From Bacillales bacterium UBA2450 (GTDB lineage Bacteria > Bacillota_I > Bacilli_A > RFN20 > CAG-826), in the NCBI GenBank assembly GCA_002342545.1, contig DDQE01000036.1:1183-65182 (forward strand): a DNA stretch of 64,000 bases, given 5' to 3'. Made by a program: the position numbers and the translations under genes. Positions within the stretch are counted from its first letter, which is position 1; every line of letters begins with the position of its first letter. The notes under the pieces were generated by a model. That model was not told where the DNA came from. It saw only the letters and a program-made list of their open reading frames with translations, and did not search any database. Below, piece after piece: positions 2,433 through 24,554 of this stretch.

Positions 2433-5009
2433 ATGGGCGAAAAAAAGAAATTCCAAATAAATTCCAAACTAGAAAACATGATCAAAGGTTTGACCCTTTG
2501 TTTGATTTCTATCATTTTGATTTTAAATGTTGGTAAAGTTGCTCGTACTTTCGCTTTTGTTCCTTTATATCTATTTGGAGCATCTTATTATATTTTATTT
2601 GCTTTAGTATTCTTATATGGCTTATTCAGAATTATTTTTAGAAGAAAAATTAAACTAAAGGAAGCGAATATCATTTTCTCTGTTCCTTTATTTTTCTTAT
2701 CGATGTTTTTCTTTTTAAGCGTTTATGACACTCCTTCATTTGATAGTGTTGGGAATGCGATTAATTCTTATCACGCCTCTTTAAATGGATATTACACGCC
2801 AGTGTTTTTTAATCCATTTAATTATTATGGTGGATTTAAACATGGTCTACTTGGTCTATCTTTAGGTGCCGGAATTAATAATAACACTGTAGCGATATTC
2901 TTAGGAATCATGCTATTAGTTGTTTCTTTATTAATCTTCTTTATGCCTTTAATTATCTCATGGATCAAAAATGACAAAAAGAAAGAAAAACCATTAAAAC
3001 TAATTCAGGAAGAGGAAAAAGAAGAAAAAGAAGTTGTGGCTATAAAAGAAGAAGAGCCGGCTCCTTCTTTAATTGCTCCTGAACCAGTTGAAGTTAAAAG
3101 AGGATTTGAAAGCGATCAAAGTCCATTCATTAATCAAAATAGTGGTTTCTCTAAGCCAACAATGTCTTTAGATGATAGTCATATGAGCGTTCACTCTCAA
3201 TCTGATTCTCGTGAATTTACTCCTTTAGTGTTCTCTAGACAAAGAAAAGTTGAAGTTATGAGCGCACCTATTAGTGAGCCTATTTCTACTAAAGTAGAAA
3301 TTGAACCAATTCAAGAAGAAACCTTAGAAGAACAGGTGGAAGTAGAGAACTTAATTGAAACTAGACCAGAAGTCGTTAATGAAGTAATCGAAGAAAAACC
3401 GCAAATTGATGAATCTTTAGTAAGAGCTCAACCAATTTTCTTAAACGAAGTTGAAAAAGAAGTAGCTCCTATAGAAAAGCCTCTTCCAATTATTGAAGAA
3501 CCTAAGAAAAAAGAACCAATTAACTGGGTTCCACCTTCTACTGATTTATTAATGACTTATGAAAATGACGATGCGAACGAATTAAATAATCAAGTCGCCG
3601 CAAATAGAGTAGAGGCCATTAACAATATTTTAGCTAACTTTAGAGTTGGAGCACATTGTACTGGCTATAAGATTGGTCCTAGCGTTACTCGTTATAACAT
3701 TGAATATGAACCAAACGTCACTATGAAATCTGTAGAGAAATTAGTAAGTGATATCTCTATGAGATTAGGTGGAGTAAGAACTAGATTTACTCCAATTGTC
3801 AGTGGAGAATCCTTCTCTGGCTTAGAAGCTCCTAACGCGAAAATCACTACAGTTAGTTTTAAAGAAGTGGTTGAAGCTCTTCCTGATGCCAAAAAACATC
3901 CCTTATCGGTTGGCTTTGGTAAGAATTTATCTGGCACAGTGATTTACGCTGATTTTAATAAATTTCCACATATTTTAGTTGCTGGTACCACTGGAAGTGG
4001 TAAATCTATTTTCATTCACTCGATTATCGCTTCTTTAATTATGAGAGCCTCACCTGATTTACTTAGAATCGTTTTAGTCGATCCAAAGATGGTGGAAATG
4101 TCTAAATATAAAGACATGCCTCATTTATTATGTCCAATTATTACTGAACCAGATAAAGCTAAAGTAATGCTTACTAAATTAGTCGATGAAATGAATCACC
4201 GTTATCAAATCTTTGCGGAAAACGGTATGGTTAGTGAAATTGACCAATATAACGAATGGGCTAGTGAAAACGGAAAAGAATTAATGCCGTTCATCGTTGT
4301 TGTTTTAGATGAATACGCTGATTTAGTGGATCGCTGTAAAGATATTGGTCTACCAGTAGTTTCTATTGCTCAAAAAGCTCGTGCTTGTGGAATTCATTTA
4401 TTAATTTCCACTCAAAGACCATCCACAAATATTATTACTGGTGTTATTAAAGGTAATTTACCAACTCACGTTGCTTTAAGAACTGCAAGCTATACTGACT
4501 CTATGACTATTATCGGAGAAGGTGGAGCAGAGCAGTTATTAGGTAAAGGCGATATGTTAGTGGAATCTCCAGTTGTATCTACTGAAGAAAAAGTAAGATT
4601 ACAAGGCTGCTTTGTACAAAATAAAGAAATACTTCGCGTTGTCGCCTATTTAAAAGAACATTATGAAACTAATTATGATCCTAACTTCTTAGATTTAGTG
4701 GATCATTCTAAAGAAGCAGGTAAACAATTAGTGGCTTCTGGAGAAGTACAAAAAGAGGCTGATGAAGCCGAAGAAATGAAGTATCAATCCGTTAAGGATT
4801 GGGTTTTAACTCAAAAATTTGTCTCGATGAGTAAGATTCAAAGAGAATGTATGGTGGGCTTTAATAGAGCTGGTAAATTCTTTAAACGTTTACAAATGGA
4901 AGGAATTGTTTCTACAGAAGTAGACGGCAACACCAAAGGATGCGCAGTTATTGGTGCCCCTAGCGATGATAATGAATATATTCCTAGTAGTGAGGAACTA
5001 ATTGGTTAA
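2433..5009 (+). CDS. ftsK: DNA translocase FtsK/SpoIIIE
   Basis: N-terminal TM helices, an E/P/V-rich linker, Walker A GTTGSGKS, a VVLDEYADL Walker B-like motif and a C-terminal gamma wHTH. Start moved to ATG 2433 (MGEKKK), which lies 7 nt after TATAAT at 2420-2425. Confidence 0.85.
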   Translation: MGEKKKFQINSKLENMIKGLTLCLISIILILNVGKVARTFAFVPLYLFGASYYILFALVFLYGLFRIIFRRKIKLKEANIIFSVPLFFLSMFFFLSVYDTPSFDSVGNAINSYHASLNGYYTPVFFNPFNYYGGFKHGLLGLSLGAGINNNTVAIFLGIMLLVVSLLIFFMPLIISWIKNDKKKEKPLKLIQEEEKEEKEVVAIKEEEPAPSLIAPEPVEVKRGFESDQSPFINQNSGFSKPTMSLDDSHMSVHSQSDSREFTPLVFSRQRKVEVMSAPISEPISTKVEIEPIQEETLEEQVEVENLIETRPEVVNEVIEEKPQIDESLVRAQPIFLNEVEKEVAPIEKPLPIIEEPKKKEPINWVPPSTDLLMTYENDDANELNNQVAANRVEAINNILANFRVGAHCTGYKIGPSVTRYNIEYEPNVTMKSVEKLVSDISMRLGGVRTRFTPIVSGESFSGLEAPNAKITTVSFKEVVEALPDAKKHPLSVGFGKNLSGTVIYADFNKFPHILVAGTTGSGKSIFIHSIIASLIMRASPDLLRIVLVDPKMVEMSKYKDMPHLLCPIITEPDKAKVMLTKLVDEMNHRYQIFAENGMVSEIDQYNEWASENGKELMPFIVVVLDEYADLVDRCKDIGLPVVSIAQKARACGIHLLISTQRPSTNIITGVIKGNLPTHVALRTASYTDSMTIIGEGGAEQLLGKGDMLVESPVVSTEEKVRLQGCFVQNKEILRVVAYLKEHYETNYDPNFLDLVDHSKEAGKQLVASGEVQKEADEAEEMKYQSVKDWVLTQKFVSMSKIQRECMVGFNRAGKFFKRLQMEGIVSTEVDGNTKGCAVIGAPSDDNEYIPSSEELIG

Positions 5010-13596: not shown

Positions 13597-15240
13597 ATGC
13601 TTGTAAAAGATTTAGCGACTGCGATTATATTTCTATTCTTAGGTGTCACTGTTTTTATCGTCGGCATGAATCTTATGTCAGGTGGACTAAAAAAAGCGAC
13701 AGGTAAATCTCTTAAGAAAATATTTAAAAAAACACAAAATAGCCCTTTTGCGTGTTTAGGAATTGGTAGTGGAGTTACCGCTTTAATTCAAAGTAGTGCG
13801 GCTACTTGTGTACTTACAGTTGGCTTTATTAATGCCGGCGTGATGACTCTATATCAAGGAGTGAATATCATGCTTGGTTCTTTTATTGGTACCACAGTTA
13901 CAGGCATATTAGTATCACTTTCATCATTTAGTATTGGTTTATATTTAGCCCTTATTGCTTTTATTGGCATTGTGATGATGTTCTTTAACAAAGAAAAAGT
14001 CAAAAATTTAGGTGAAGTTCTTACTGGATTTGGTCTAGTTTTCTTAGGTTTAGACTTATTAAAAAGCGCTTTTAGTCAGGCTGATATTAATAACGCTACT
14101 CAACAATTATTCTCTTCAGTTAGTTTCCCATTATTACTTCTTTTAATTGGCATTGTTTTGACGGCTTTAGTGCAGTCTAGTAGTGCAGTTACTGGTATTG
14201 CGATTGTCATGGTCTCTAGTGGAGCAATTCCTTTTTCTAGTGCGATATATATCGCTTTAGGAGCGACAATTGGAACTTGTATTACCACTTTAATTGCCAC
14301 TATTGGAGGCACAGTTAACGCCAAAAGGTCAGGCTTTATTTCTTTGGTGATAAAAGTAGTTGCGGCCTTAATCGCCATTGCGATTATTTGGCCTTTATCT
14401 ACTCCAATTTCTAATTTCTTCTCCTCTAGCTTTGGTTCTTCTGGCTTAGGCTTAGCGATGTTTACATTACTTTATAGTGTGGTTTTCTTTGTTGCTTCTA
14501 TGCCTTTAGTGAAACCTTTAATTAAAGTATCTGAAAGAGTTATCAAAGATAAAGATTTAGAAAATAAGAAGAATTTACTTTTATATATCGATGATAGATT
14601 ATTAAACACTCCTGATATCGCTGTGATGCAAGTGAAAAATGAAATTTTACATATGTATAATCTCGCGATGCTTAATTTTAGATATGGCTATGAATGCTTA
14701 GTAAAAGGCGATAAGACTAATTCAGGATCTATCGCTGATACTGAAAGCAATATTGATTATATCAATAGTAAAATTACTGAATATTTAATCTCTTTATCTA
14801 ATAAAGTTAGCAAAGAAGATTCTAAAGTTGTGGGTTCTTATTTCCACGTTATTAATGATATTGAGCGTATTGGAGACCATGCCTATAACTTCTATGAAAA
14901 CTCTAAGAGATTAGAAGAAAGTGATTTAAGATTCTCTAATGTCGCCGTTAAAGAGATAGATGTTTTCTTTGATTTAATTATGGATATGTCTGATTTAACT
15001 ATGGGCATCTTTAAAAACGAAGAATATCAAAAACTAGATAAACTCCATGAATTAGAAGATAGAAGCGATGTCCTTGCTAAAGAGTTAAGTGATAACCATT
15101 ATAAGCGAATGACTGCGAATGAATGTAACGGGGCTCTTTCAGATGACTTTGCCACTTTAATTAGCGAACTAGAAAGAGTGGCGGACCACTTAACTAATAT
15201 CGGTTATTCTGTTATTAACCCAACTGGAGACGAAGAATAA
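13597..15240 (+). CDS. Na/Pi cotransporter family protein with C-terminal PhoU-like repeats
   Basis: Duplicated NaPi-II membrane repeats (QSSSA) and C-terminal IERIGDHA / LERVADHL PhoU motifs. ATG lies 7 nt after TGaTAATAT. Confidence 0.8.
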   Translation: MLVKDLATAIIFLFLGVTVFIVGMNLMSGGLKKATGKSLKKIFKKTQNSPFACLGIGSGVTALIQSSAATCVLTVGFINAGVMTLYQGVNIMLGSFIGTTVTGILVSLSSFSIGLYLALIAFIGIVMMFFNKEKVKNLGEVLTGFGLVFLGLDLLKSAFSQADINNATQQLFSSVSFPLLLLLIGIVLTALVQSSSAVTGIAIVMVSSGAIPFSSAIYIALGATIGTCITTLIATIGGTVNAKRSGFISLVIKVVAALIAIAIIWPLSTPISNFFSSSFGSSGLGLAMFTLLYSVVFFVASMPLVKPLIKVSERVIKDKDLENKKNLLLYIDDRLLNTPDIAVMQVKNEILHMYNLAMLNFRYGYECLVKGDKTNSGSIADTESNIDYINSKITEYLISLSNKVSKEDSKVVGSYFHVINDIERIGDHAYNFYENSKRLEESDLRFSNVAVKEIDVFFDLIMDMSDLTMGIFKNEEYQKLDKLHELEDRSDVLAKELSDNHYKRMTANECNGALSDDFATLISELERVADHLTNIGYSVINPTGDEE

Positions 15241-15249
15241 AAATAAAAT

Positions 15250-15268
15250 GGTAAGTCTATGACTTACC
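15250..15268. terminator. Hairpin between convergent genes
   Basis: GGTAAGTC-tat-GACTTACC. The U-run lies on the minus-strand side. Confidence 0.55.
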
Positions 15269-15734
15269 AATTAACTTCAATTACTTCATCCACTAGATCA
15301 AGGACTTCTTGACTAGGGGCTTCAAATTTATTAACAAGGCCCACTAATATATCATCAGGAACTCGTAAGGCGACTTCTCTTAAGTTGTTATATTTTCTTG
15401 ATTTTTCTAGGGTATTTGGGAATAAGACTAAAATCTTTTTATCGAATTCTGGAGTAGTGGATAAGTATTTTAATCTTACAGCGTTAACATCATTAAGAGC
15501 GTCTACAATAACTGTAACATCTTCACCTTTAGCGGCATATTCATGAATTCTTTTTTCAAAAAGTTCCCAAACTTCTTTTTGTTTTGAGTGGTCTTGAAAA
15601 TCTCCATGAGTAACTTCCATTCTTACCTCATCACTATTAACAATATAAGTGTTTGGGTGAGTCGCTTGATACTCTTTTGCCCAGGTCGATTTCCCAGACG
15701 CAGGTATCGCGCTTAACATAATCATTGTTTTCAT
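15264..15734 (-). CDS. Small P-loop kinase-like ATPase (AAA_33 / polynucleotide-kinase-like)
   Basis: Walker A AIPASGKST at the N-terminus and a Walker B-like VIVDALN. 156 aa. Confidence 0.6.
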   Translation of the reverse strand: MKTMIMLSAIPASGKSTWAKEYQATHPNTYIVNSDEVRMEVTHGDFQDHSKQKEVWELFEKRIHEYAAKGEDVTVIVDALNDVNAVRLKYLSTTPEFDKKILVLFPNTLEKSRKYNNLREVALRVPDDILVGLVNKFEAPSQEVLDLVDEVIEVNW

Positions 15735-15871
15735 AAGCTTCTCCTTAAGTGTCCAACCTTCAAAAGGAATAAGAACGAATTAAATATAAGGGATAATCTA
15801 TCTTCTTTCAAATATTTATTTGATTATTTGGGAAAATATCGAATTGTTACTATATCTCCAATTTCTAAATA

Positions 15872-15889
15872 TTGCATGAAAACGTGCAA
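15872..15889. promoter_or_regulatory. Palindromic operator copy 1: TTGCATG-aaaa-CGTGCAA
   Basis: Imperfect inverted repeat seen directly. A near-identical second copy lies 53 bp downstream. Confidence 0.6.
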
Positions 15890-15924
15890 TAAATCGATAT
15901 AAATAAGTAAAACATAACTAAAAG

Positions 15925-15952
15925 TTGCATGAAATCGTGCAAATGATATAAT
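15925..15952 (+). promoter_or_regulatory. Promoter of the DUF3990 operon overlapped by operator copy 2 (TTGCATG-aaat-CGTGCAA)
   Basis: -35 TTGCAT at 15925-15930, a 16-nt spacer, and extended -10 TGaTATAAT at 15944-15952. ATG 15959 lies 6 nt after the -10. Confidence 0.6.
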
Positions 15953-15958
15953 AGAGAC

Positions 15959-16606
15959 ATGGAAAAACTATTTCATGGTTCAGACAAAGAAATAATTAAG
16001 CCTATCTATGGTTATGGAAGAAATGATTGTGACTATGGATCTGGTTTTTATTTATGTAAAGAACTCGATATAGCTCGTATGTGGGCGTGTCAATATCCTG
16101 AAGGCGGATATATCAATTCCTATGTCATTAATATGGACAAATTGAATGTTTTATGGCTCAACCACGTAACTGATAAAGATATCTTAACTTGGATCGCCTT
16201 ATTATGCGCTAATAGGATAGATCAACAGACTAAATCAAATTCGAAAGAAGAAATTGATTTTTTAATCAAAAACTTTTTGCCTAATTTAAATGGTGTCGAT
16301 ATGATTGTTGGCTATCGTGCGGATGATTCTTATTATCAATATACTCGAGCGTTTTTAAATAACGATTTACCTTTAGAATTATTAAAAGAATCTATGGAAT
16401 TAGGAAAACTTGGTCTTCAATACGTTTTAATTAGTAAAAAAGCTTTTGATGAGATTAGATTTATTGATTCTTTATTTGTTCCTAGTTCAAATGAATATCA
16501 AATAGTGGAAGAGACCGCTAATAAGGAATATGAGCAAATATTAAGAAAGAGAAATGTCAACCAGACATATTTGAGGGATATTATCCGTGAAATCAGTAAA
16601 CATTAA
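15959..16606 (+). CDS. DUF3990-like protein with PARP/ART-like HGS...GFY motifs
   Basis: N-terminus MEKLFHGSDKEIIKPIYGYGRNDCDYGSGFYLCKELDIARMWA matches my recollection of the DUF3990 N-terminus. Confidence 0.6.
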   Translation: MEKLFHGSDKEIIKPIYGYGRNDCDYGSGFYLCKELDIARMWACQYPEGGYINSYVINMDKLNVLWLNHVTDKDILTWIALLCANRIDQQTKSNSKEEIDFLIKNFLPNLNGVDMIVGYRADDSYYQYTRAFLNNDLPLELLKESMELGKLGLQYVLISKKAFDEIRFIDSLFVPSSNEYQIVEETANKEYEQILRKRNVNQTYLRDIIREISKH

Positions 16607-17474
16607 TGAAATTAAAAATAAATTTGGATATCTTCTTTCCTTTTTACATTTACAGTGTGAATTAGATAGCGATTCAATATCTAATGTAATTGTGAAATCT
16701 AATTTTTTTGATTTTTTAGAAAATAATGATGTTGAATCATTTTTATCTAAGGATATTGTGACTATCTCTAAAAATATTTTTAGAGCCAGCCAAAAAAAAT
16801 ATTCCCCGAATTTTTTGAACGATTATGTTTACGCTGGAGAATGTTATATTTCAATATCAATATCTTTATGTATTCCTTTAAGACAGTTATTTCTAATTTA
16901 TCCTTTATCAAAAATGCTTTCTTTATATCCTTTATATCATGAGGTCGCTCAATTTAGAGTAATTGAAAAAGTGAGAAATGATATCTCTACAAAAACAGCG
17001 TTTTCTATTCTTTTAGAAAAAAGCGAATATAGTGTTCTTTCGGTTTCTAAAATATGTGACATAAATAGAAATTATTTATCGTCCTTATTAAAAGAGGCAA
17101 AACAAGAAGATAAATTAACATATTTACAAATAAGTAAGTTATCTGATTTATTTGGTGTTGATAAGATATTTTTTACAAGTAGTAATTTTGTTCCGTATTA
17201 TTCTTCCTTATGGAATGACTATCAATTTGTAATTTTTGTGATTAAACACCTTTCTTTAATATGTGAGAATAAACATGTATATTTTGATTTTGATGGAAAT
17301 AGACTAGAAGCTAGTAAAAACAAAACATATATTGTGATATCCCCTGATGAAGCTTATTTATATAAAAAAAATAATAGGAGCAAAATTCCTAATGCAAAAT
17401 TTGATTTAGCAATCAAACTTTCCTTAATAGAATATAGAGAATATTGTCTTAATAAAAGCATTGCCTTTTGCTAA
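16587..17474 (+). CDS. DUF3791-like N-terminal domain fused to an XRE-type helix-turn-helix and an unknown C-terminal domain
   Basis: GTG start preceded by GAGGG. It overlaps the upstream stop by 20 nt. The HTH segment is LLEKSEYSVLSVSKICDINRNYLSSLLKEAKQEDKLTYLQISKLSDLFGV. Confidence 0.55.
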   Translation: MKSVNINEIKNKFGYLLSFLHLQCELDSDSISNVIVKSNFFDFLENNDVESFLSKDIVTISKNIFRASQKKYSPNFLNDYVYAGECYISISISLCIPLRQLFLIYPLSKMLSLYPLYHEVAQFRVIEKVRNDISTKTAFSILLEKSEYSVLSVSKICDINRNYLSSLLKEAKQEDKLTYLQISKLSDLFGVDKIFFTSSNFVPYYSSLWNDYQFVIFVIKHLSLICENKHVYFDFDGNRLEASKNKTYIVISPDEAYLYKKNNRSKIPNAKFDLAIKLSLIEYREYCLNKSIAFC

Positions 17475-17597
17475 TTCGTTTTCTAAGTAATATCAGACTT
17501 TTTATTTGCCTATTTATTAAAGTTCAATCAGATTATTAATTATTGTTTATTAAAAATTATAAATTTGTAATAATAGTGGTTGAGGTAATTAACTATT

Positions 17598-21019: not shown

Positions 21020-21946
21020 ATGATTGCGTTAATTGTTATCTTATCTATCTTAGGAGCGATTTTATTAATTGTTATTCTCAGCTCCATTAAAATTGTCAAA
21101 CAAACAGAAAAAGTGATCGTTGAAAGATTAGGTGCATATCGTACCACTTGGAATGTGGGTATTCATATGTTACTTCCATTTTTTGATCGTGTAGCGTTGC
21201 GTGTTTCAATGAAGGAACAAGTTAAGGATTTTGAACCACAATCAGTTATTACAAAAGATAATGTTACAATGGAAATTGATACGGTTGTCTTCTTTGTAGT
21301 TACAGATGCAAAATTATATGCTTATGGTGTAGAAGATCCTCTTAGTGCTATTAGTTATTTAAGTGCTACAACATTAAGAAACATTATTGGAGAACTTGCC
21401 CTTGATGAATGTTTGACTTCTAGAGAAATCATTAATGAAAAAATGAGAAAGATTCTTGATGAAGCAACTGATCCTTGGGGTATTAAAGTTAATCGTGTTG
21501 AAGTTAAAAATATTCTTCCACCAAAAGATATACGCGAAGCAATGGAAAAGCAAATGCGTGCTGAACGTGAAAAAAGAGAAAAAATACTTCTTGCTGAAGG
21601 TGAAAAACAATCCGCTATTTTAGTGGCTGAAGGCGAAAAACAATCTGCAATTTTAAAAGCTGAAGCTGATAAACAAATGACGATTCTACGTGCTGAGGGT
21701 GAAGCTGAAAGTTTAAGACAAGTCAAACAAGCTGAAGCAGACTCCATTAAAATGGTCAAACAAGCTGAAGCAGAAGGCTTGAAACTAATTAACGAATCTA
21801 AACCAAGTCAAGAAGCTTTACAACTAAGATACTACGAAGCCTTAACCAAAGTTGCAGACGGACAATCTACAAAAATCTTCCTACCAAGTGACGGACTAAA
21901 GATTGGTTCAATTGCTTCTATTGCTAAAGAAGTAAGTAAAGATTAA
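21020..21946 (+). CDS. SPFH/band-7 (stomatin/prohibitin-like) protein
   Basis: N-terminal TM helix, an SPFH core and an A/E/K-rich coiled coil with duplicated AEGEKQSAIL. Confidence 0.85.
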   Translation: MIALIVILSILGAILLIVILSSIKIVKQTEKVIVERLGAYRTTWNVGIHMLLPFFDRVALRVSMKEQVKDFEPQSVITKDNVTMEIDTVVFFVVTDAKLYAYGVEDPLSAISYLSATTLRNIIGELALDECLTSREIINEKMRKILDEATDPWGIKVNRVEVKNILPPKDIREAMEKQMRAEREKREKILLAEGEKQSAILVAEGEKQSAILKAEADKQMTILRAEGEAESLRQVKQAEADSIKMVKQAEAEGLKLINESKPSQEALQLRYYEALTKVADGQSTKIFLPSDGLKIGSIASIAKEVSKD

Positions 21947-22961: not shown

Positions 22962-24380
22962 ATGATTATCGGGAGAAAAAATCAAATTAATTTGCTTAAT
23001 CAAACACTTGAAAGCGATAAATCAGAATTTGTAGTAGTGTATGGAAGAAGAAGAGTTGGCAAAACTTTTTTGATTGATGAATTCTTTAATGGCAATTATG
23101 CCTTTTACGCTACTGGAGTTGTTGAAAGAAATCAAAAAAATCAACTAAAAGTATTTGAGCGTTTTTTATTGAAATATGGTCATAATAAGAATAAAACCCC
23201 ATCTGATTGGTACGAAGCTTTTGATTTGCTTATAAATATTCTCGAATCAGATAATGTTAATAGAGAAATTTCTAGCAACAAAAGAATTGTATTTTTGGAT
23301 GAGCTTCCATGGATGGATACTCCTAAATCGAATTTTAAATCTGCGCTTGATTATTTTTGGAATAGTTATGCATCTAAACACAAAGATATAGTGCTGATAG
23401 TCTGTGGATCGGCAACATCTTGGATTTTGAACAATTTATTAAATTCTAAAACCGGTTTTTACAACCGTGTAACTAAAAAGATTTTGTTGGAGCCTTTTAC
23501 ATTAAAAGAAACATATGAATATCTATTATCCAAGGGATTTCAATATACAAAACAAACTGTCATTGATGCTTATATGGTTTTTGGTGGTGTTCCATTTTAT
23601 TTAGAAATGTTGTCTCCAAGATTGTCATTAGATCAAAATATTGAGAAATTATGTTTTGAAGAAAAAGGCGATCTTCACTACGAATTAAATAATTTATTTA
23701 AATCTTTGTTTAAGAATCATAATAAACATTTGGAAGTGATTTTATCATTAAGCAAAGTTAAATCAGGAATAACCAGACAACAAATTATCGAAAAAACAAA
23801 GATAAATGGGCAAACATTGACTGATATTTTACTTGAGTTAGAGCAATGTTCTTTTATAAGAAAGTTCACCAATTTTACAATGCAAAAAAACGGTAGCTTT
23901 TATCAAATAATTGATCCGTTTATTTTGTTTTCTTTAAAATTTGATTTTGCAAATAAAAAGATTTCTTGGCTTTCATTTATAAATTCTTCTGATTATTATT
24001 CCTGGTGCGGATTGGCTTTTGAAAAAGTATGTTTAAATAACATCAATTCAATTAAGATGGCGCTCGGAATCTCTTCAATTGAAACAGAAGTTTTTTCTTG
24101 GAGAAGCAAGAATTCTGAAACCGGTGCACAAATTGACTTGGTTATTGATAGAGGTGATCGAACAATTAATATTTGTGAAATGAAGCATTCGATTTCTGCC
24201 TTTGAAATAGATAAAAAGTACGCTGAAAATCTATTGAATAAGAGAGCTGTTTTTATAAATGAAACTAAAACAAATAAATCTGTGCAAATTTCTTTGTTTA
24301 CTGTTAACGGACTAAAAAAGAACCAGTATTCAAATATAGTCCAAAACAGTTTTGATTGTGACTCTTTATTTTTAATATAA
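22962..24380 (+). CDS. AAA+ ATPase (Arch_ATPase/DUF234-type) with a C-terminal PD-(D/E)xK nuclease-like motif
   Basis: MIIGRKNQI start after a gagga SD, Walker A GRRRVGKT, Walker B IVFLDELPW, and C-terminal IDLVIDRGDRTINICEMK. The track start at 22881 reads through the repeat and is rejected. Confidence 0.75.
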   Translation: MIIGRKNQINLLNQTLESDKSEFVVVYGRRRVGKTFLIDEFFNGNYAFYATGVVERNQKNQLKVFERFLLKYGHNKNKTPSDWYEAFDLLINILESDNVNREISSNKRIVFLDELPWMDTPKSNFKSALDYFWNSYASKHKDIVLIVCGSATSWILNNLLNSKTGFYNRVTKKILLEPFTLKETYEYLLSKGFQYTKQTVIDAYMVFGGVPFYLEMLSPRLSLDQNIEKLCFEEKGDLHYELNNLFKSLFKNHNKHLEVILSLSKVKSGITRQQIIEKTKINGQTLTDILLELEQCSFIRKFTNFTMQKNGSFYQIIDPFILFSLKFDFANKKISWLSFINSSDYYSWCGLAFEKVCLNNINSIKMALGISSIETEVFSWRSKNSETGAQIDLVIDRGDRTINICEMKHSISAFEIDKKYAENLLNKRAVFINETKTNKSVQISLFTVNGLKKNQYSNIVQNSFDCDSLFLI

Positions 24381-24487
24381 TTCGCCAGAAGTACGCGGAA
24401 AATAATAGTTTTGGCGGATTATCTATATAAAAAATGCGTATAATTCGCCAAAAGTGGCTAAAAATAGTTGATTCTGGCGGATTATCC
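24376..24487 (+). repeat. Downstream 112-bp repeat made of two tandem units (24376-24424 and 24439-24487), in direct orientation to 22823-22934
   Basis: Same two-unit architecture and the same ATATAAAAAATGC linker. It overlaps the ATPase stop codon. Confidence 0.85.
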
Positions 24488-24554
24488 GTTTTAAAAATTT
24501 TTAATTGAATAAATTCTTTATTGGATTATAAATTGATAAATGTAATAATATCTA

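What the first reader, a model, noticed from the sequence alone, without database searches (positions are those of the whole stretch)
15264..17474. Candidate new toxin-antitoxin or defence-type module: DUF3990-like protein with PARP-like motifs, translationally coupled to a DUF3791-like/XRE-HTH protein, beside a divergent P-loop kinase
**Seen in sequence**
- Two + strand genes overlap by 20 nt. A GTG at 16587, preceded by GAGGG, lies inside the 3' end of the first gene.
- Gene 1 starts MEKLFHGS...GSGFYL. HGS and G-x-Y are the first two strand motifs of the H-Y-E class of ADP-ribosyltransferases (PARP, DarT-like). A later VGYRADD could supply the acidic third position.
- Gene 2 has three parts: a DUF3791-like N-terminus, a clear XRE helix-turn-helix (SVLSVSKICDINRNYLSSLLK...LTYLQISKLSDLFGV), and about 100 unassigned C-terminal residues.
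- A 156-aa P-loop kinase (ASGKST) is transcribed divergently from the same intergenic region.
- The block sits between a phosphate transporter gene and an oxidative-stress cluster, with no functional link to either.

**Inference**
- An enzyme-like first gene plus a DNA-binding second gene with an autoregulatory operator is toxin-antitoxin or abortive-infection architecture, as in DarT-DarG or RES-Xre.
- As far as I know, no function has been demonstrated for the DUF3990/DUF3791 pair.
Basis: partly seen in the sequence, partly recalled or inferred. Interest (0 to 1): 0.72.

Follow-up and report, generated by a model that had tools for sequence, protein, structure and literature searches.

The report
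ART-like toxin with repressor partner
This is a self-contained, horizontally mobile two-gene cassette: a predicted ADP-ribosyltransferase-fold protein (DUF3990) translationally coupled to a DNA-binding partner that probably represses their shared promoter. It looks like a toxin-antitoxin or phage-defence module that databases have already flagged but nobody has tested.

Summary
Two + strand genes (15959-16606 and 16587-17474) overlap by 20 nt, with GAGGG 9 nt before the GTG.

- **Gene 1** is a full-length Pfam DUF3990. Its high-confidence model matches ADP-ribosyltransferase (ART) folds, best the phage ART-PolyVal domains.
- **Gene 2** has three parts: a helical N-domain, an XRE helix-turn-helix (HTH) and a clade-specific C-terminal domain of about 100 aa. 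It gives no DUF3791 hit.
- **The pair is conserved.** A partner gene overlaps the 3' end of the DUF3990 gene in 79 of 80 genomes from several phyla, in unrelated flanks. The pair also occurs on phage contigs, and DUF3990 genes occur on plasmids.
- **The promoter carries operators.** There are two copies of TTGCA-N8-TGCAA, 53 bp apart, and these are the only two in the 64 kb window. Related loci carry lineage-specific palindromes that track the HTH recognition helix.
- **The kinase is not part of it.** It is absent from all other loci and mostly deleted in the nearest relative.

Best reading: an autoregulated toxin-antitoxin-like cassette built like MqsRA, with an ART-fold toxin.

The idea is not new. 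DUF3990 sits in Pfam's ART clan, its apparent clade (Tox-ART-HYD2) was predicted to form toxin-antitoxin systems, and PADLOC lists DUF3990 plus the partner N-domain as unpublished candidate PDC-M42. I found no experimental work. The window's long partner escapes PADLOC's partner model, so I call it a new variant of a known, untested kind.

The parts
15862..15958 (+). Regulatory region of the cassette: the promoter plus two operator-like palindromes. It is conserved base for base in the nearest relative, starting just upstream of the distal operator. Upstream of that point the relative carries a deletion.
   Evidence: Alignment of the window with L001; repeats.
15872..15889 (+). Distal operator-like palindrome, TTGCATGAAAACGTGCAA (TTGCA-N8-TGCAA).
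   Evidence: The pattern occurs only twice in the 64 kb window, against 0.07 expected from shuffles.
15925..15942 (+). Proximal operator-like palindrome, TTGCATGAAATCGTGCAA, 53 bp from the distal copy. It overlaps the weak -35 (TTGCAT) and the spacer of the promoter.
   Evidence: The same two-copy layout with 52-53 bp spacing is seen in L110, L111, L113 and L003.
15944..15952 (+). Extended -10 element, TGaTATAAT. It ends 6 nt before the ATG of gene 1 and there is no Shine-Dalgarno sequence, so a leaderless mRNA is predicted.
   Evidence: Read from the sequence. The same geometry, a -10-like AT-rich hexamer followed by 6 nt and the ATG, is seen in L110, L111, L113 and L003. The consensus promoter scan did not list it because its -35 matches only 3 of 6.
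15959..16606 (+). Gene 1, 215 aa: a DUF3990 / ADP-ribosyltransferase-fold protein and the predicted toxin or effector. Key codons are H6 (15974-15976), Y31 (16049-16051), D114 (16298-16300) and D122-D123 (16322-16327).
   Evidence: Pfam E 9e-33; PADLOC PDC-M42A E 1e-34; AlphaFold pLDDT 93.7; Foldseek; invariant residues.
16573..16577 (+). Shine-Dalgarno sequence (GAGGG) for gene 2. It lies inside the 3' end of gene 1, 9 nt before the GTG start.
   Evidence: An overlapping partner start is conserved in 79 of 80 loci.
16587..16991 (+). Gene 2 N-terminal helical domain (aa 1-135). It is homologous to the PDC-M42B-type partner domain and is the predicted domain that binds and neutralises the DUF3990 protein. 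H118 is the only residue invariant in all 79 partners.
   Evidence: hhalign probability 99.4%, E 1.6e-21; an HTH-less partner in Treponema equals this domain alone; invariant H118.
16992..17177 (+). Gene 2 XRE-type helix-turn-helix (aa 136-197), the predicted operator-binding domain.
   Evidence: Foldseek against PDB; weak profile match to C.BclI; alignment to HTH_3-bearing partners.
17178..17474 (+). Gene 2 C-terminal alpha/beta domain (aa 198-295) plus the stop codon. It is specific to the roughly 275-330 aa 'long partner' subfamily and its function is unknown. A sensor or oligomerisation role is possible.
   Evidence: Secondary structure of the model; no family or fold match; conserved in many long-form representatives.

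Best explanation
Bases 15862-17474 hold an autonomous, horizontally acquired two-gene cassette of the toxin-antitoxin (TA) type.

**Gene 1** encodes an ADP-ribosyltransferase-fold protein. It is Pfam DUF3990. By inference this equals the Tox-ART-HYD2 / ART-PolyVal clade, with His on strand 1, Tyr on strand 2 and Asp at strand 5. I infer that it uses NAD+ to ADP-ribosylate a cellular or phage macromolecule and is growth-inhibiting when free.

**Gene 2** is translated by coupling from a start codon inside gene 1. It encodes a three-domain partner:
- a helical N-domain, inferred to bind and neutralise the gene 1 protein;
- an XRE helix-turn-helix (HTH), inferred to bind two TTGCA-N8-TGCAA operators 53 bp apart (five helical turns), the proximal one lying over the promoter, and so repress the operon;
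- a clade-specific C-terminal domain, which may oligomerise the repressor or sense a trigger.

Loss or inactivation of the partner would free the enzyme. This could follow loss of the element, proteolysis or phage infection. The architecture is that of MqsR-MqsA: toxin gene first, then an antitoxin with an N-terminal toxin-binding domain and a C-terminal HTH, and paired palindromes in the promoter. The MqsRA comparison rests on my own knowledge.

**Shown here:** gene structure and coupling, family and fold assignments, conservation of the pair, the operators and their covariation with the HTH, mobility, and independence from the kinase.

**Inferred:** enzymatic activity, toxicity, neutralisation by the N-domain, repression, and the trigger.
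For: 1. **Fold and family.** Pfam DUF3990 at E 9e-33. DUF3990 is in Pfam's ART clan (PMC7955679). The model has pLDDT 93.7. Six BFVD matches reach E<=1e-3, and the named ones among them are ART-PolyVal. Most of the top PDB matches are ART folds: PARP1/2/4, ParT, Arr, a RES toxin and diphtheria toxin.
2. **Motifs.** The invariant residues D25, G29-F30-Y31, W42/W78, R86 and D114 match the published Tox-ART-HYD2 signature 'H, D, GFY, W, R' and its phyletic range (PMC3482391). [quoted passage not shown]
3. **Toxin use elsewhere.** DUF3990 is the C-terminal toxin domain of T6SS Rhs proteins (PMC4524185, PMC10763514).
4. **Obligate pair.** 79 of 80 genome loci from Firmicutes, Bacteroidales, Spirochaetes, Victivallales, Fibrobacter, Parasutterella and Elusimicrobia have a partner ORF overlapping the 3' end of the DUF3990 gene. 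So do 21 of 24 viral loci.
5. **Partner homology.** Gene 2 residues 6-192 align with the common 213-aa partner at 99.4% probability. 71 of 79 partners carry HTH_3 and 72 of 79 hit PDC-M42B. An HTH-less partner consists of the N-domain alone. The N-domain is therefore the constant part that travels with DUF3990.
6. **Operators.**
   - The window motif occurs 2 times against 0.07 expected.
   - Perfect 6-N-6 palindromes lie upstream in 50 of 79 loci, against 19.1 +/- 3.4 in shuffles. Two or more sites occur in 21 loci, against 2.8 +/- 1.6.
   - Half-sites track the recognition helix: TACTTC with R-T-L-Q-Q/E (22 of 22), TATCAC mostly with RSIQM, TATCGT mostly with RMIQL, TATCGC mostly with RQIQL.
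   - The 52-53 bp two-copy layout is conserved in the long-partner clade although the operator sequences differ.
7. **Mobility.**
   - Flanks are unrelated: 163 Pfam families in 139 neighbouring genes.
   - Viral contigs carry the pair next to terminase, portal and integrase genes.
   - 31 plasmids carry a DUF3990 gene, 25 of them conjugative.
   - GC falls to 0.23-0.29 in the cassette against 0.32-0.35 in the flanks.
   - Other TA genes sit next door in L110, L113 and pBF9343.
8. **One hint of ADP-ribose chemistry.** An ADP-ribosylglycohydrolase gene lies directly upstream of the 73%-identical homologue in L110.
Against: - There is no experimental evidence for toxicity, NAD+ use or repression, here or in the literature I could search.
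- The strand-1 His is Tyr in 48 of 96 close homologues. This is unusual for an active H-Y-[ED] ART, although the window protein has His.
- PDB structural matches are below significance (best E 0.04, TM 0.3-0.46). A profile search against PDB sequences found nothing.
- I could not superpose the model on an NAD-bound ART. The identity of the acidic residue (D114 or D122/D123) and the existence of a pocket are therefore unverified.
- In the window and in L111 the cassette sits among housekeeping genes, not in a defence island or prophage.
- Only a minority of neighbouring genes elsewhere are defence-related.
- The covariation of operator and recognition helix is confounded by phylogeny.
- The partner (295 aa) is larger than the proposed toxin, which is atypical for classical type II antitoxins.
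Confidence: 0.6

Rival explanations
1. It is a dedicated anti-phage abortive-infection system rather than a housekeeping or addiction-type toxin-antitoxin module. The partner holds the ART-fold effector inactive until a phage cue is sensed, perhaps through the extra C-terminal domain. The effector then ADP-ribosylates phage or host nucleic acid or protein, as DarT does. This overlaps with the best explanation and differs only in biological role.
For: - PADLOC lists the pair as phage-defence candidate PDC-M42 and related DUF3990 pairs as M10 and M13.
- Some loci lie next to restriction enzymes, a CBASS cyclase, ToxN/AbiQ or a HEPN nuclease.
- Prophage and phage contigs carry the pair as an accessory gene next to integrase and repressor genes.
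- DarTG is a precedent for an ART toxin that defends against phage (cited in PMC9503650).
Against: - PDC systems are unpublished and unvalidated candidates (PMC11811056).
- The window's own locus, and L111, are in housekeeping surroundings.
- Most immediate neighbours in 73 loci are not defence genes.
- The window's partner does not hit PADLOC's M42B model.
Confidence: 0.3
2. It is a non-toxic enzyme with its own transcription factor. DUF3990 would be an Arr-like small-molecule or regulatory ADP-ribosyltransferase, for example one that inactivates an antibiotic. Gene 2 would be a ligand-responsive repressor that only controls its expression and does not neutralise it.
For: - The Foldseek hit list includes the rifampin ADP-ribosyltransferase Arr, at 21-23% identity over 65-80 residues.
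- Gene 2 has two extra domains that could bind a ligand.
- The operator-over-promoter design is common to ordinary repressors.
Against: - Overlapping, coupled translation is conserved in 79 of 80 loci.
- Partners that lack the HTH altogether still accompany DUF3990. The conserved N-domain therefore acts on the protein, not on DNA.
- DUF3990 is used as the toxic tip of Rhs effectors.
- The distribution is patchy and mobile, often beside TA genes.
Confidence: 0.12
3. It is an offensive or counter-defence effector of a mobile element. Like the ART-PolyVal domains of phage and conjugative-element polyvalent proteins, the DUF3990 protein would modify host proteins for the benefit of an invading element, and the pair in this chromosome would be a remnant of such an element.
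For: - The closest structural matches are ART-PolyVal domains and polyvalent proteins.
- Those domains are postulated to modify host proteins on entry (PMC5512222).
- Homologues occur on conjugative Bacteroides plasmids and on phage contigs.
Against: - Here the protein stands alone. It is not fused to MuF, portal or other polyvalent modules.
- It always comes with an overlapping partner and its own repressible promoter.
- It is found intact in many chromosomes with no element nearby.
Confidence: 0.08
4. The DUF3990 protein is a catalytically dead ART-fold scaffold (a pseudoenzyme) that acts by binding, not by ADP-ribosylation.
For: - The strand-1 position is Tyr instead of His in half of the close homologues. 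This resembles inactive PARP-family members, a comparison from my own knowledge.
- There is no significant match to any solved, active ART.
Against: - A large set of polar residues is strictly invariant across 96 homologues: D25, Y26, Y31, R86, D114, R120, D122, D123, Q154. This is typical of an active site.
- The window protein itself keeps His.
- The clade is predicted to be active in the literature.
Confidence: 0.1

Closest known systems
PADLOC candidate system PDC-M42 (unpublished phage-defence candidate; A = DUF3990, B = 138-position helical partner domain)
   Same: Gene 1 hits PDC-M42A at E 1e-34 over its whole length. 72 of 79 partners of its homologues hit PDC-M42B. Gene 2 residues 6-192 are homologous to those partners (hhalign 99.4%).
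   Different: Gene 2 itself gives no PADLOC hit at E<=1, and neither do the other long partners L003, L004 and L016. It carries an HTH and an extra C-terminal domain of about 100 aa that the M42B model does not cover. PDC-M42 has no published validation.
Tox-ART-HYD2 / ART-PolyVal clade of ADP-ribosyltransferase domains (Zhang et al. 2012, PMC3482391; Iyer et al. 2017, PMC5512222)
   Same: The conserved signature is the same (H, D, GFY, W, R), and so is the phyletic spread. The best structural matches are ART-PolyVal proteins. One close homologue also carries a precomputed PF18760 (ART-PolyVal) hit. The clade was already linked to predicted toxin-antitoxin systems.
   Different: Those descriptions concern toxin tips of polymorphic toxins and domains inside giant polyvalent proteins. 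Here the domain stands alone with a dedicated HTH partner. The equivalence of DUF3990 and Tox-ART-HYD2 is my inference from motifs, not a stated mapping. Nothing in the clade has been tested biochemically, as far as I could find.
DUF3791-DUF3990 pairs on Bacteroides conjugative plasmids (for example pBF9343, NC_006873; PADLOC PDC-M13/M10)
   Same: A DUF3990 ART-like gene overlaps a small helical partner gene, on mobile DNA next to a zeta-toxin module.
   Different: The gene order is reversed, with the partner first and a 4-nt overlap. The DUF3990 protein is shorter (159 aa, 24% identity). The partner is DUF3791 (two units of about 70 aa, no HTH) and shows no significant profile similarity to gene 2 or to the M42B-type domain.
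MqsR-MqsA type II toxin-antitoxin system (own knowledge)
   Same: The toxin gene comes first. The antitoxin has an N-terminal toxin-binding domain and a C-terminal XRE HTH. The promoter holds two palindromic operators. Five of 79 partners even hit the Pfam MqsA_antitoxin model through the HTH.
   Different: The toxin is an ART-fold protein, not a RelE-like RNase. The N-domain is helical, not a zinc ribbon. There is no sequence homology outside the HTH.
ParT-ParS / RES-Xre and DarT-DarG (ART-fold toxins in toxin-antitoxin systems)
   Same: An ART-superfamily toxin is paired with a cognate neutraliser. ParT and a RES toxin appear in the Foldseek list (TM up to 0.46). DarTG defends against phage.
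   Different: There is no Pfam RES or DarT hit. In RES-Xre the antitoxin gene comes first. The DarG antitoxin is a macrodomain hydrolase, and no macrodomain is present here. The active-site configuration also differs: R-E-S for RES (own knowledge), predicted H-Y-D here.

Membership tests
Pfam DUF3990 (PF13151) | Score above the family's gathering cut-off over the full profile | tested here: met
   113.5 bits against a cut-off of 32.2, E 9.2e-33, profile positions 2-152 of 152.
ADP-ribosyltransferase superfamily, H-Y-[ED] division (Tox-ART-HYD2 / ART-PolyVal clade) | ART fold (split beta-sheet core) | tested here: met
   The model has pLDDT 93.7. Six BFVD matches reach E<=1e-3, the best at 6.4e-9, and the named ones among them are ART-PolyVal. 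The top PDB matches are mostly ART folds but all at E>=0.04. Pfam places DUF3990 in the ART clan.
ADP-ribosyltransferase superfamily, H-Y-[ED] division (Tox-ART-HYD2 / ART-PolyVal clade) | His on strand 1 (HG[ST]) | tested here: inconclusive
   The window protein has H6-G7-S8 on strand 1. However, the position is His in 48 and Tyr in 48 of 96 homologues.
ADP-ribosyltransferase superfamily, H-Y-[ED] division (Tox-ART-HYD2 / ART-PolyVal clade) | Tyr on strand 2 (the GFY motif of Tox-ART-HYD2) | tested here: met
   G29-F30-Y31 lies on strand 2 (residues 30-33). F30 and Y31 are invariant and G29 is present in 95 of 96.
ADP-ribosyltransferase superfamily, H-Y-[ED] division (Tox-ART-HYD2 / ART-PolyVal clade) | Acidic residue (Asp) on strand 5 facing the NAD site | tested here: inconclusive
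   Invariant D114 immediately precedes the fifth strand (115-119). Invariant D122 and D123 follow it. No residue-level superposition on an NAD-bound ART was possible with these tools.
ADP-ribosyltransferase superfamily | NAD+-dependent ADP-ribosyl transfer or NAD+ hydrolysis | not testable with these tools
   This needs biochemistry.
PADLOC PDC-M42 candidate system | A component (DUF3990-type) and B component both detected, adjacent | tested here: inconclusive
   A is met (E 1.4e-34). The B model does not hit gene 2 at E<=1. Gene 2 is nevertheless homologous by profile-profile comparison to proteins that do hit B.
Type II toxin-antitoxin system | Two adjacent co-transcribed genes, conserved as a pair, patchily distributed and mobile | tested here: met
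Type II toxin-antitoxin system | The antitoxin binds DNA and autoregulates through operators in the promoter | tested here: inconclusive
   The HTH fold, the promoter-embedded palindromes and the covariation of operator with recognition helix are all present in silico. Binding and repression were not tested.
Type II toxin-antitoxin system | The toxin inhibits growth and the antitoxin neutralises it by direct binding | not testable with these tools
   No complex prediction or experiment was available.
Pfam DUF3791 (PF12668), for the gene 2 N-terminus | Match to the family model or profile | tested here: not met
   No Pfam hit at E<=1. Two of 79 relatives give marginal hits. hhalign of a 32-sequence DUF3791 profile against the partner profiles gives probability 0.7-3.3%.
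XRE / Cro-C1 helix-turn-helix | Five-helix HTH_3-type fold | tested here: met
   No direct Pfam hit for gene 2. Foldseek probability is 0.99-1.0 at rmsd 1.5-3.5 A to CapH-NTD, C.BclI, SinR and Stl. Residues 139-192 align with the HTH_3 region of the common partners.
DarT-DarG / RES-Xre (ParST) | DarT (DUF4433) or RES domain toxin; macrodomain or upstream Xre-DUF2384 antitoxin | tested here: not met
   There are no such Pfam hits for gene 1 or gene 2. The gene order and partner domains differ. Only distant fold similarity to ParT is seen.

The most novel reading that the evidence does not exclude
The cassette is a working anti-phage or stress-triggered suicide module. An H-Y-D ART of a biochemically unexplored clade (DUF3990 / Tox-ART-HYD2) ADP-ribosylates a new target. 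It is held in check by a three-domain repressor-antitoxin whose clade-specific C-terminal domain is the sensor. If so, one experiment would give a function to DUF3990, to the toxin tips of several T6SS Rhs effectors, and to the ART domains of phage polyvalent proteins.
Probability: 0.3. Interest if true: 0.7.

Novelty: new variant of a known kind. Interest (0 to 1): 0.5.

Why it matters
DUF3990 is a widespread ART-fold family in gut and rumen bacteria, plasmids, phages and T6SS Rhs toxins, and it has no demonstrated activity. This locus offers a compact and well-defined test case:
- a clear enzyme candidate with named residues (H6, Y31, D114, D122/D123);
- a partner with separable domains;
- mapped operators;
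- a predicted leaderless promoter.

Showing toxicity, the ADP-ribosylation target and neutralisation would turn a database candidate (PDC-M42) and a decade-old computational prediction into a characterised system. It would also inform the related toxin and polyvalent-protein domains.

The finding is not a conceptual surprise. ART toxins with cognate antitoxins are known (DarTG, ParST, RES-Xre), and this pair has already been flagged computationally.

Tried and rejected
- **Kinase as a third component: rejected.** tblastn found no homologue in 82 related loci. A relative whose gene 1 is 99% identical has lost about 480 bp of the kinase gene while keeping the cassette and its operators intact.
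- **An RNA-repair link** (polynucleotide-kinase-like kinase plus a Tpt1-like ART) was dropped for the same reason.
- **DUF3791 homology of gene 2: not supported.** I tested it by Pfam scan, a single DUF3791 sequence against the partner profiles and profile against profile. Only short motif-level likeness remains (FxFLxxN and LH[ET]).
- **Profile searches against PDB sequences.** Nothing for gene 1, and only weak C.BclI and XCC1541 hits for gene 2.
- **NCBIfam and PHROGs.** No useful hit for either gene.
- **A conserved third gene or a defence-island context.** The flanks are heterogeneous.
- **RNA elements.** No Rfam or tRNA hits in the region or in the whole window.
- **The consensus promoter scan** did not list the promoter, because its -35 matches only 3 of 6. 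I read it by eye instead.
- **Literature.** 'PDC-M42' and 'PF13151' gave no papers. The Aravind 2015 ART review (PMC6126934) is not held, so its description of the TA class could not be read.
- **One script timed out** and was rewritten.
- **Not possible with the tools or caps:** a residue-level structural superposition, and a prediction of the complex.

Full report
**1. What is in the sequence**

The ORF scan confirms three genes:
- a 156-aa ORF on the minus strand, 15264-15734;
- a 215-aa ORF, 15959-16606 (+);
- a 295-aa ORF, 16587-17474 (+), starting with GTG.

The two plus-strand genes overlap by 20 nt. GAGGG (16573-16577) lies 9 nt before the GTG. All homologues of gene 2 start (M/V)KS(V/I)N, so the start is genuine. 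The flanks are a Na/Pi cotransporter-PhoU gene upstream and a flavodoxin / flavodiiron-type / rubredoxin cluster downstream. No Rfam family or tRNA is present.

**2. Gene 1**

- *Family.* It is a full-length Pfam DUF3990 (E 9.2e-33). It also hits PADLOC's PDC-M42A (E 1.4e-34) and the related M13 and M10 models.
- *Spread.* The word-indexed search found 1,573 homologues.
- *Fold.* An AlphaFold model built on 96 sequences is confident (pLDDT 93.7, pTM 0.88).
  - Against PDB, most of the top 50 matches are ADP-ribosyltransferase (ART) folds: PARP1/2/4, ParT, a RES toxin, Arr and diphtheria toxin. None is significant (best E 0.04, TM 0.3-0.46).
  - Against BFVD, six matches reach E<=1e-3 (best 6.4e-9). 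The named ones among them are 'ART-PolyVal' ADP-ribosyltransferase domains. Further matches are large multidomain phage proteins, presumably polyvalent proteins.
- *Classification.* Pfam places DUF3990 in the ART clan (PMC7955679).
- *Conserved residues.* Invariant in 96 homologues are G7, D25-Y26-G27, F30-Y31, G50, W78, R86, D114, G118-Y119-R120-A121-D122-D123, Y125 and Q154.
- *Match to a published clade.* These residues fit the signature given for Tox-ART-HYD2 ('H, D, GFY, W, R'). The phyletic range given there also fits: bacteroidetes, fibrobacteres, firmicutes, lentisphaerae, spirochaetes and others (PMC3482391). That is the range I see among the genome loci. [quoted passage not shown]
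- *Placement in the model.* H6 is on strand 1, Y31 on strand 2, and invariant D114 sits at the N-terminal edge of the fifth strand (115-119). 'D133/D134' in the finding is a misnumbering.
- *A caveat.* Position 6 is His in 48 and Tyr in 48 of the 96 homologues.
- *Use as a toxin.* DUF3990 forms the C-terminal toxin tip of T6SS Rhs proteins in Serratia and Enterobacter. Its function is called unknown in papers from 2015, 2023 and 2025.

**3. Gene 2**

It has no Pfam, NCBIfam or PADLOC hit. The word-indexed search found only nine homologues.

The exhaustive profile search found 202 cluster representatives at E<=1e-3. The stronger hits are mostly 275-330 aa proteins, many aligned along most of their length. 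The weaker ones are forms of about 200 aa aligned over residues 1-195.

The model (pLDDT 87) shows three parts:
- a helical N-domain;
- a five-helix bundle that Foldseek matches to XRE helix-turn-helix (HTH) domains: CapH-NTD, C.BclI, SinR and Stl, at probability about 1 and rmsd 1.5-3.5 A;
- a C-terminal alpha/beta domain (aa 198-295) with no match.

Profile-profile comparison shows that residues 6-192 are homologous to the common 213-aa partner of DUF3990 genes (99.4%, E 1.6e-21). Of 79 such partners, 71 carry Pfam HTH_3 and 72 hit PADLOC PDC-M42B.

The M42B model has 138 positions and corresponds to the N-domain alone. An HTH-less 142-aa partner on the Treponema plasmid pTS1 matches it at 2.9e-51.

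The DUF3791 label is not supported. Genuine DUF3791-DUF3990 pairs do exist, for example on pBF9343. There the gene order is reversed, the pair lies next to a zeta toxin gene, and PADLOC calls it PDC-M13.

**4. The pair is the unit**

- In 80 genome loci from at least six phyla, 79 have a partner ORF whose start lies inside or next to the 3' end of the DUF3990 gene, typically overlapping by 16-50 nt.
- In 24 IMG/VR contigs, 21 have the partner.
- Immediate neighbours are unrelated from locus to locus. There are 163 Pfam families in 139 genes, and none occurs in more than four of them.
- A minority of neighbours are integrases, resolvases, terminases, restriction enzymes or other PADLOC hits.
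- On viral contigs the pair lies among terminase, portal, integrase and repressor genes.
- 31 plasmids carry a DUF3990 gene, and 25 of them are conjugative.
- In the window, GC falls to 0.23-0.29 across the cassette against 0.32-0.35 in the flanks.
- In the closest clade the contexts also differ:
  - housekeeping genes in the window, L001 and L111;
  - a HigBA pair and an ADP-ribosylglycohydrolase gene directly upstream in L110;
  - a Phd/YefM antitoxin gene in L113.

**5. The kinase is a bystander**

It is a P-loop AAA_33/KTI12-type kinase, polynucleotide-kinase-like. No homologue occurs in any of 82 related loci. In L001, whose gene 1 is 99% identical, about 480 bp of the kinase gene are deleted. 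The cassette and everything from about 15862 onward are retained unchanged.

**6. Regulation**

- *Window operators.* The intergenic region holds two copies of an 18-bp palindrome, TTGCA-N8-TGCAA, at 15872-15889 and 15925-15942, 53 bp apart. These are the only two occurrences in the 64 kb window, against 0.07 expected.
- *Promoter.* The proximal copy overlaps a weak -35 and the spacer of an extended -10 (TGaTATAAT, 15944-15952). The -10 ends 6 nt before the ATG and there is no Shine-Dalgarno sequence, so a leaderless transcript is predicted.
- *Conservation in the long-partner clade.* L110, L111, L113 and L003 share the layout: two copies 52-53 bp apart, then a -10-like AT-rich hexamer, 6 nt and the ATG. 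Their operator sequences differ.
- *The wider family.*
  - 16-bp palindromes of the 6-N4-6 type sit between the -35 and -10, often with a second copy downstream.
  - Perfect 6-bp-arm palindromes occur in 50 of 79 upstream regions, against 19.1 +/- 3.4 in shuffles.
  - Two or more sites occur in 21 regions, against 2.8 +/- 1.6.
- *Covariation.* Half-sites follow the HTH recognition helix. TACTTC goes with R-T-L-Q-Q/E in 22 of 22 loci. TATCAC goes mostly with RSIQM, TATCGT mostly with RMIQL, and TATCGC mostly with RQIQL. This is what autoregulation by the partner predicts, although shared ancestry contributes to the pattern.

**7. Interpretation**

The best-supported model is an autoregulated toxin-antitoxin-type cassette:
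- an ART-fold effector;
- a partner whose constant N-domain neutralises it;
- an HTH that represses the operon from paired operators;
- in this clade, an extra C-terminal domain of unknown role.

The layout is that of MqsRA (my own knowledge). The enzymatic activity, toxicity, neutralisation, repression and trigger are all inferred.

The rivals are:
- a dedicated abortive-infection defence role, which is compatible with the main model;
- a non-toxic enzyme with an ordinary repressor;
- a counter-defence effector of a mobile element;
- a pseudoenzyme.

**8. Novelty**

Pfam's clan assignment, the 2012-2017 computational work on the clade that DUF3990 appears to match, and PADLOC's PDC-M42, M13 and M10 all anticipate it. 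PDC systems are unpublished candidates, and I found no experimental paper.

The window's version is a variant whose long partner escapes PADLOC's partner model. It therefore might not be called by that tool.

I rate it a new variant of a known but untested kind, of moderate interest, with concrete experiments available.

Noticed in passing
window 15264-15734 (-) and L001 7767-7900: The P-loop kinase gene is a presence/absence polymorphism. A relative whose gene 1 is 99% identical carries a deletion of about 480 bp. Only about 65 nt of the kinase 3' end remain, and the neighbouring cassette is untouched.
   Followed up: yes
window 15944-15961; also L110, L111, L113 and L003 upstream of the DUF3990 start: A -10-like AT-rich hexamer ends 6 nt before the ATG and there is no Shine-Dalgarno sequence. 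Gene 1 of the long-partner clade is therefore probably translated from a leaderless mRNA. Most other family members have a normal GGAGG leader.
   Followed up: partly
window 15249-15269: A hairpin lies between the convergent Na/Pi transporter and kinase genes. The scan scored it as a minus-strand terminator (T-run at about 15239-15248). With A/T-rich runs on both sides, it could terminate both genes.
   Followed up: no
L110 1080-1928 (+), directly upstream of the 73%-identical DUF3990 gene: An ADP-ribosylglycohydrolase (PF03747) gene lies next to the cassette, with a HigB/HTH pair just beyond it. This hints at ADP-ribose chemistry, but it was seen in one locus only and is not among the recurrent neighbours elsewhere.
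   Followed up: partly
Alignment A1, position 6 of gene 1 (window 15974-15976): The strand-1 'catalytic' position is split exactly, His in 48 and Tyr in 48 of 96 homologues. The neighbouring G7 is invariant and position 8 is Ser or Ala. Whether the Tyr forms are active is unknown.
   Followed up: partly
Alignment A3 (79 partner proteins); window gene 2 residue H118 (16938-16940): A single His, in a Y-P-x-L-H-E motif at the end of the N-domain, is the only residue invariant in all partners. DUF3791 proteins have an invariant His in a similar E-M-L-H-T-Q motif, yet the two families show no significant profile similarity.
   Followed up: partly
L083 (pBF9343, NC_006873) 2552-4612: On conjugative Bacteroides plasmids a DUF3791-DUF3990 pair (reversed order, 4-nt overlap) lies immediately upstream of a zeta-toxin family gene. 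This makes a small cluster of toxin-type modules.
   Followed up: partly
L055 25-1056: In one genome locus the DUF3990 reading frame runs on for 343 aa with no separate partner ORF. This could be a fusion or a frameshift/assembly artefact. L105 and L106 (viral) have a different 167-aa downstream ORF instead of the usual partner.
   Followed up: no
Flanking genes of L003-L082 (alignment A4): One neighbouring gene is itself a strong PDC-M42A (DUF3990) hit (E 6e-120), so at least one genome carries two DUF3990 genes side by side. AAA_14/DUF4143 ATPases (PADLOC PDC-S01) recur next to three loci, and an ATPase_2/AAA_14 gene also lies about 4.6 kb downstream of the cassette in L001.
   Followed up: no
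window 21545-21676 and 24376-24498: Tandem repeats unrelated to the finding: a 33-nt period array (about 4 copies) and a 63-nt unit repeated twice.
   Followed up: no
L001 9643-9831: The close relative has an extra called 62-aa ORF between the partner gene and the flavodoxin gene. The window's equivalent spacer (17475-17597) is only 123 nt.
   Followed up: no
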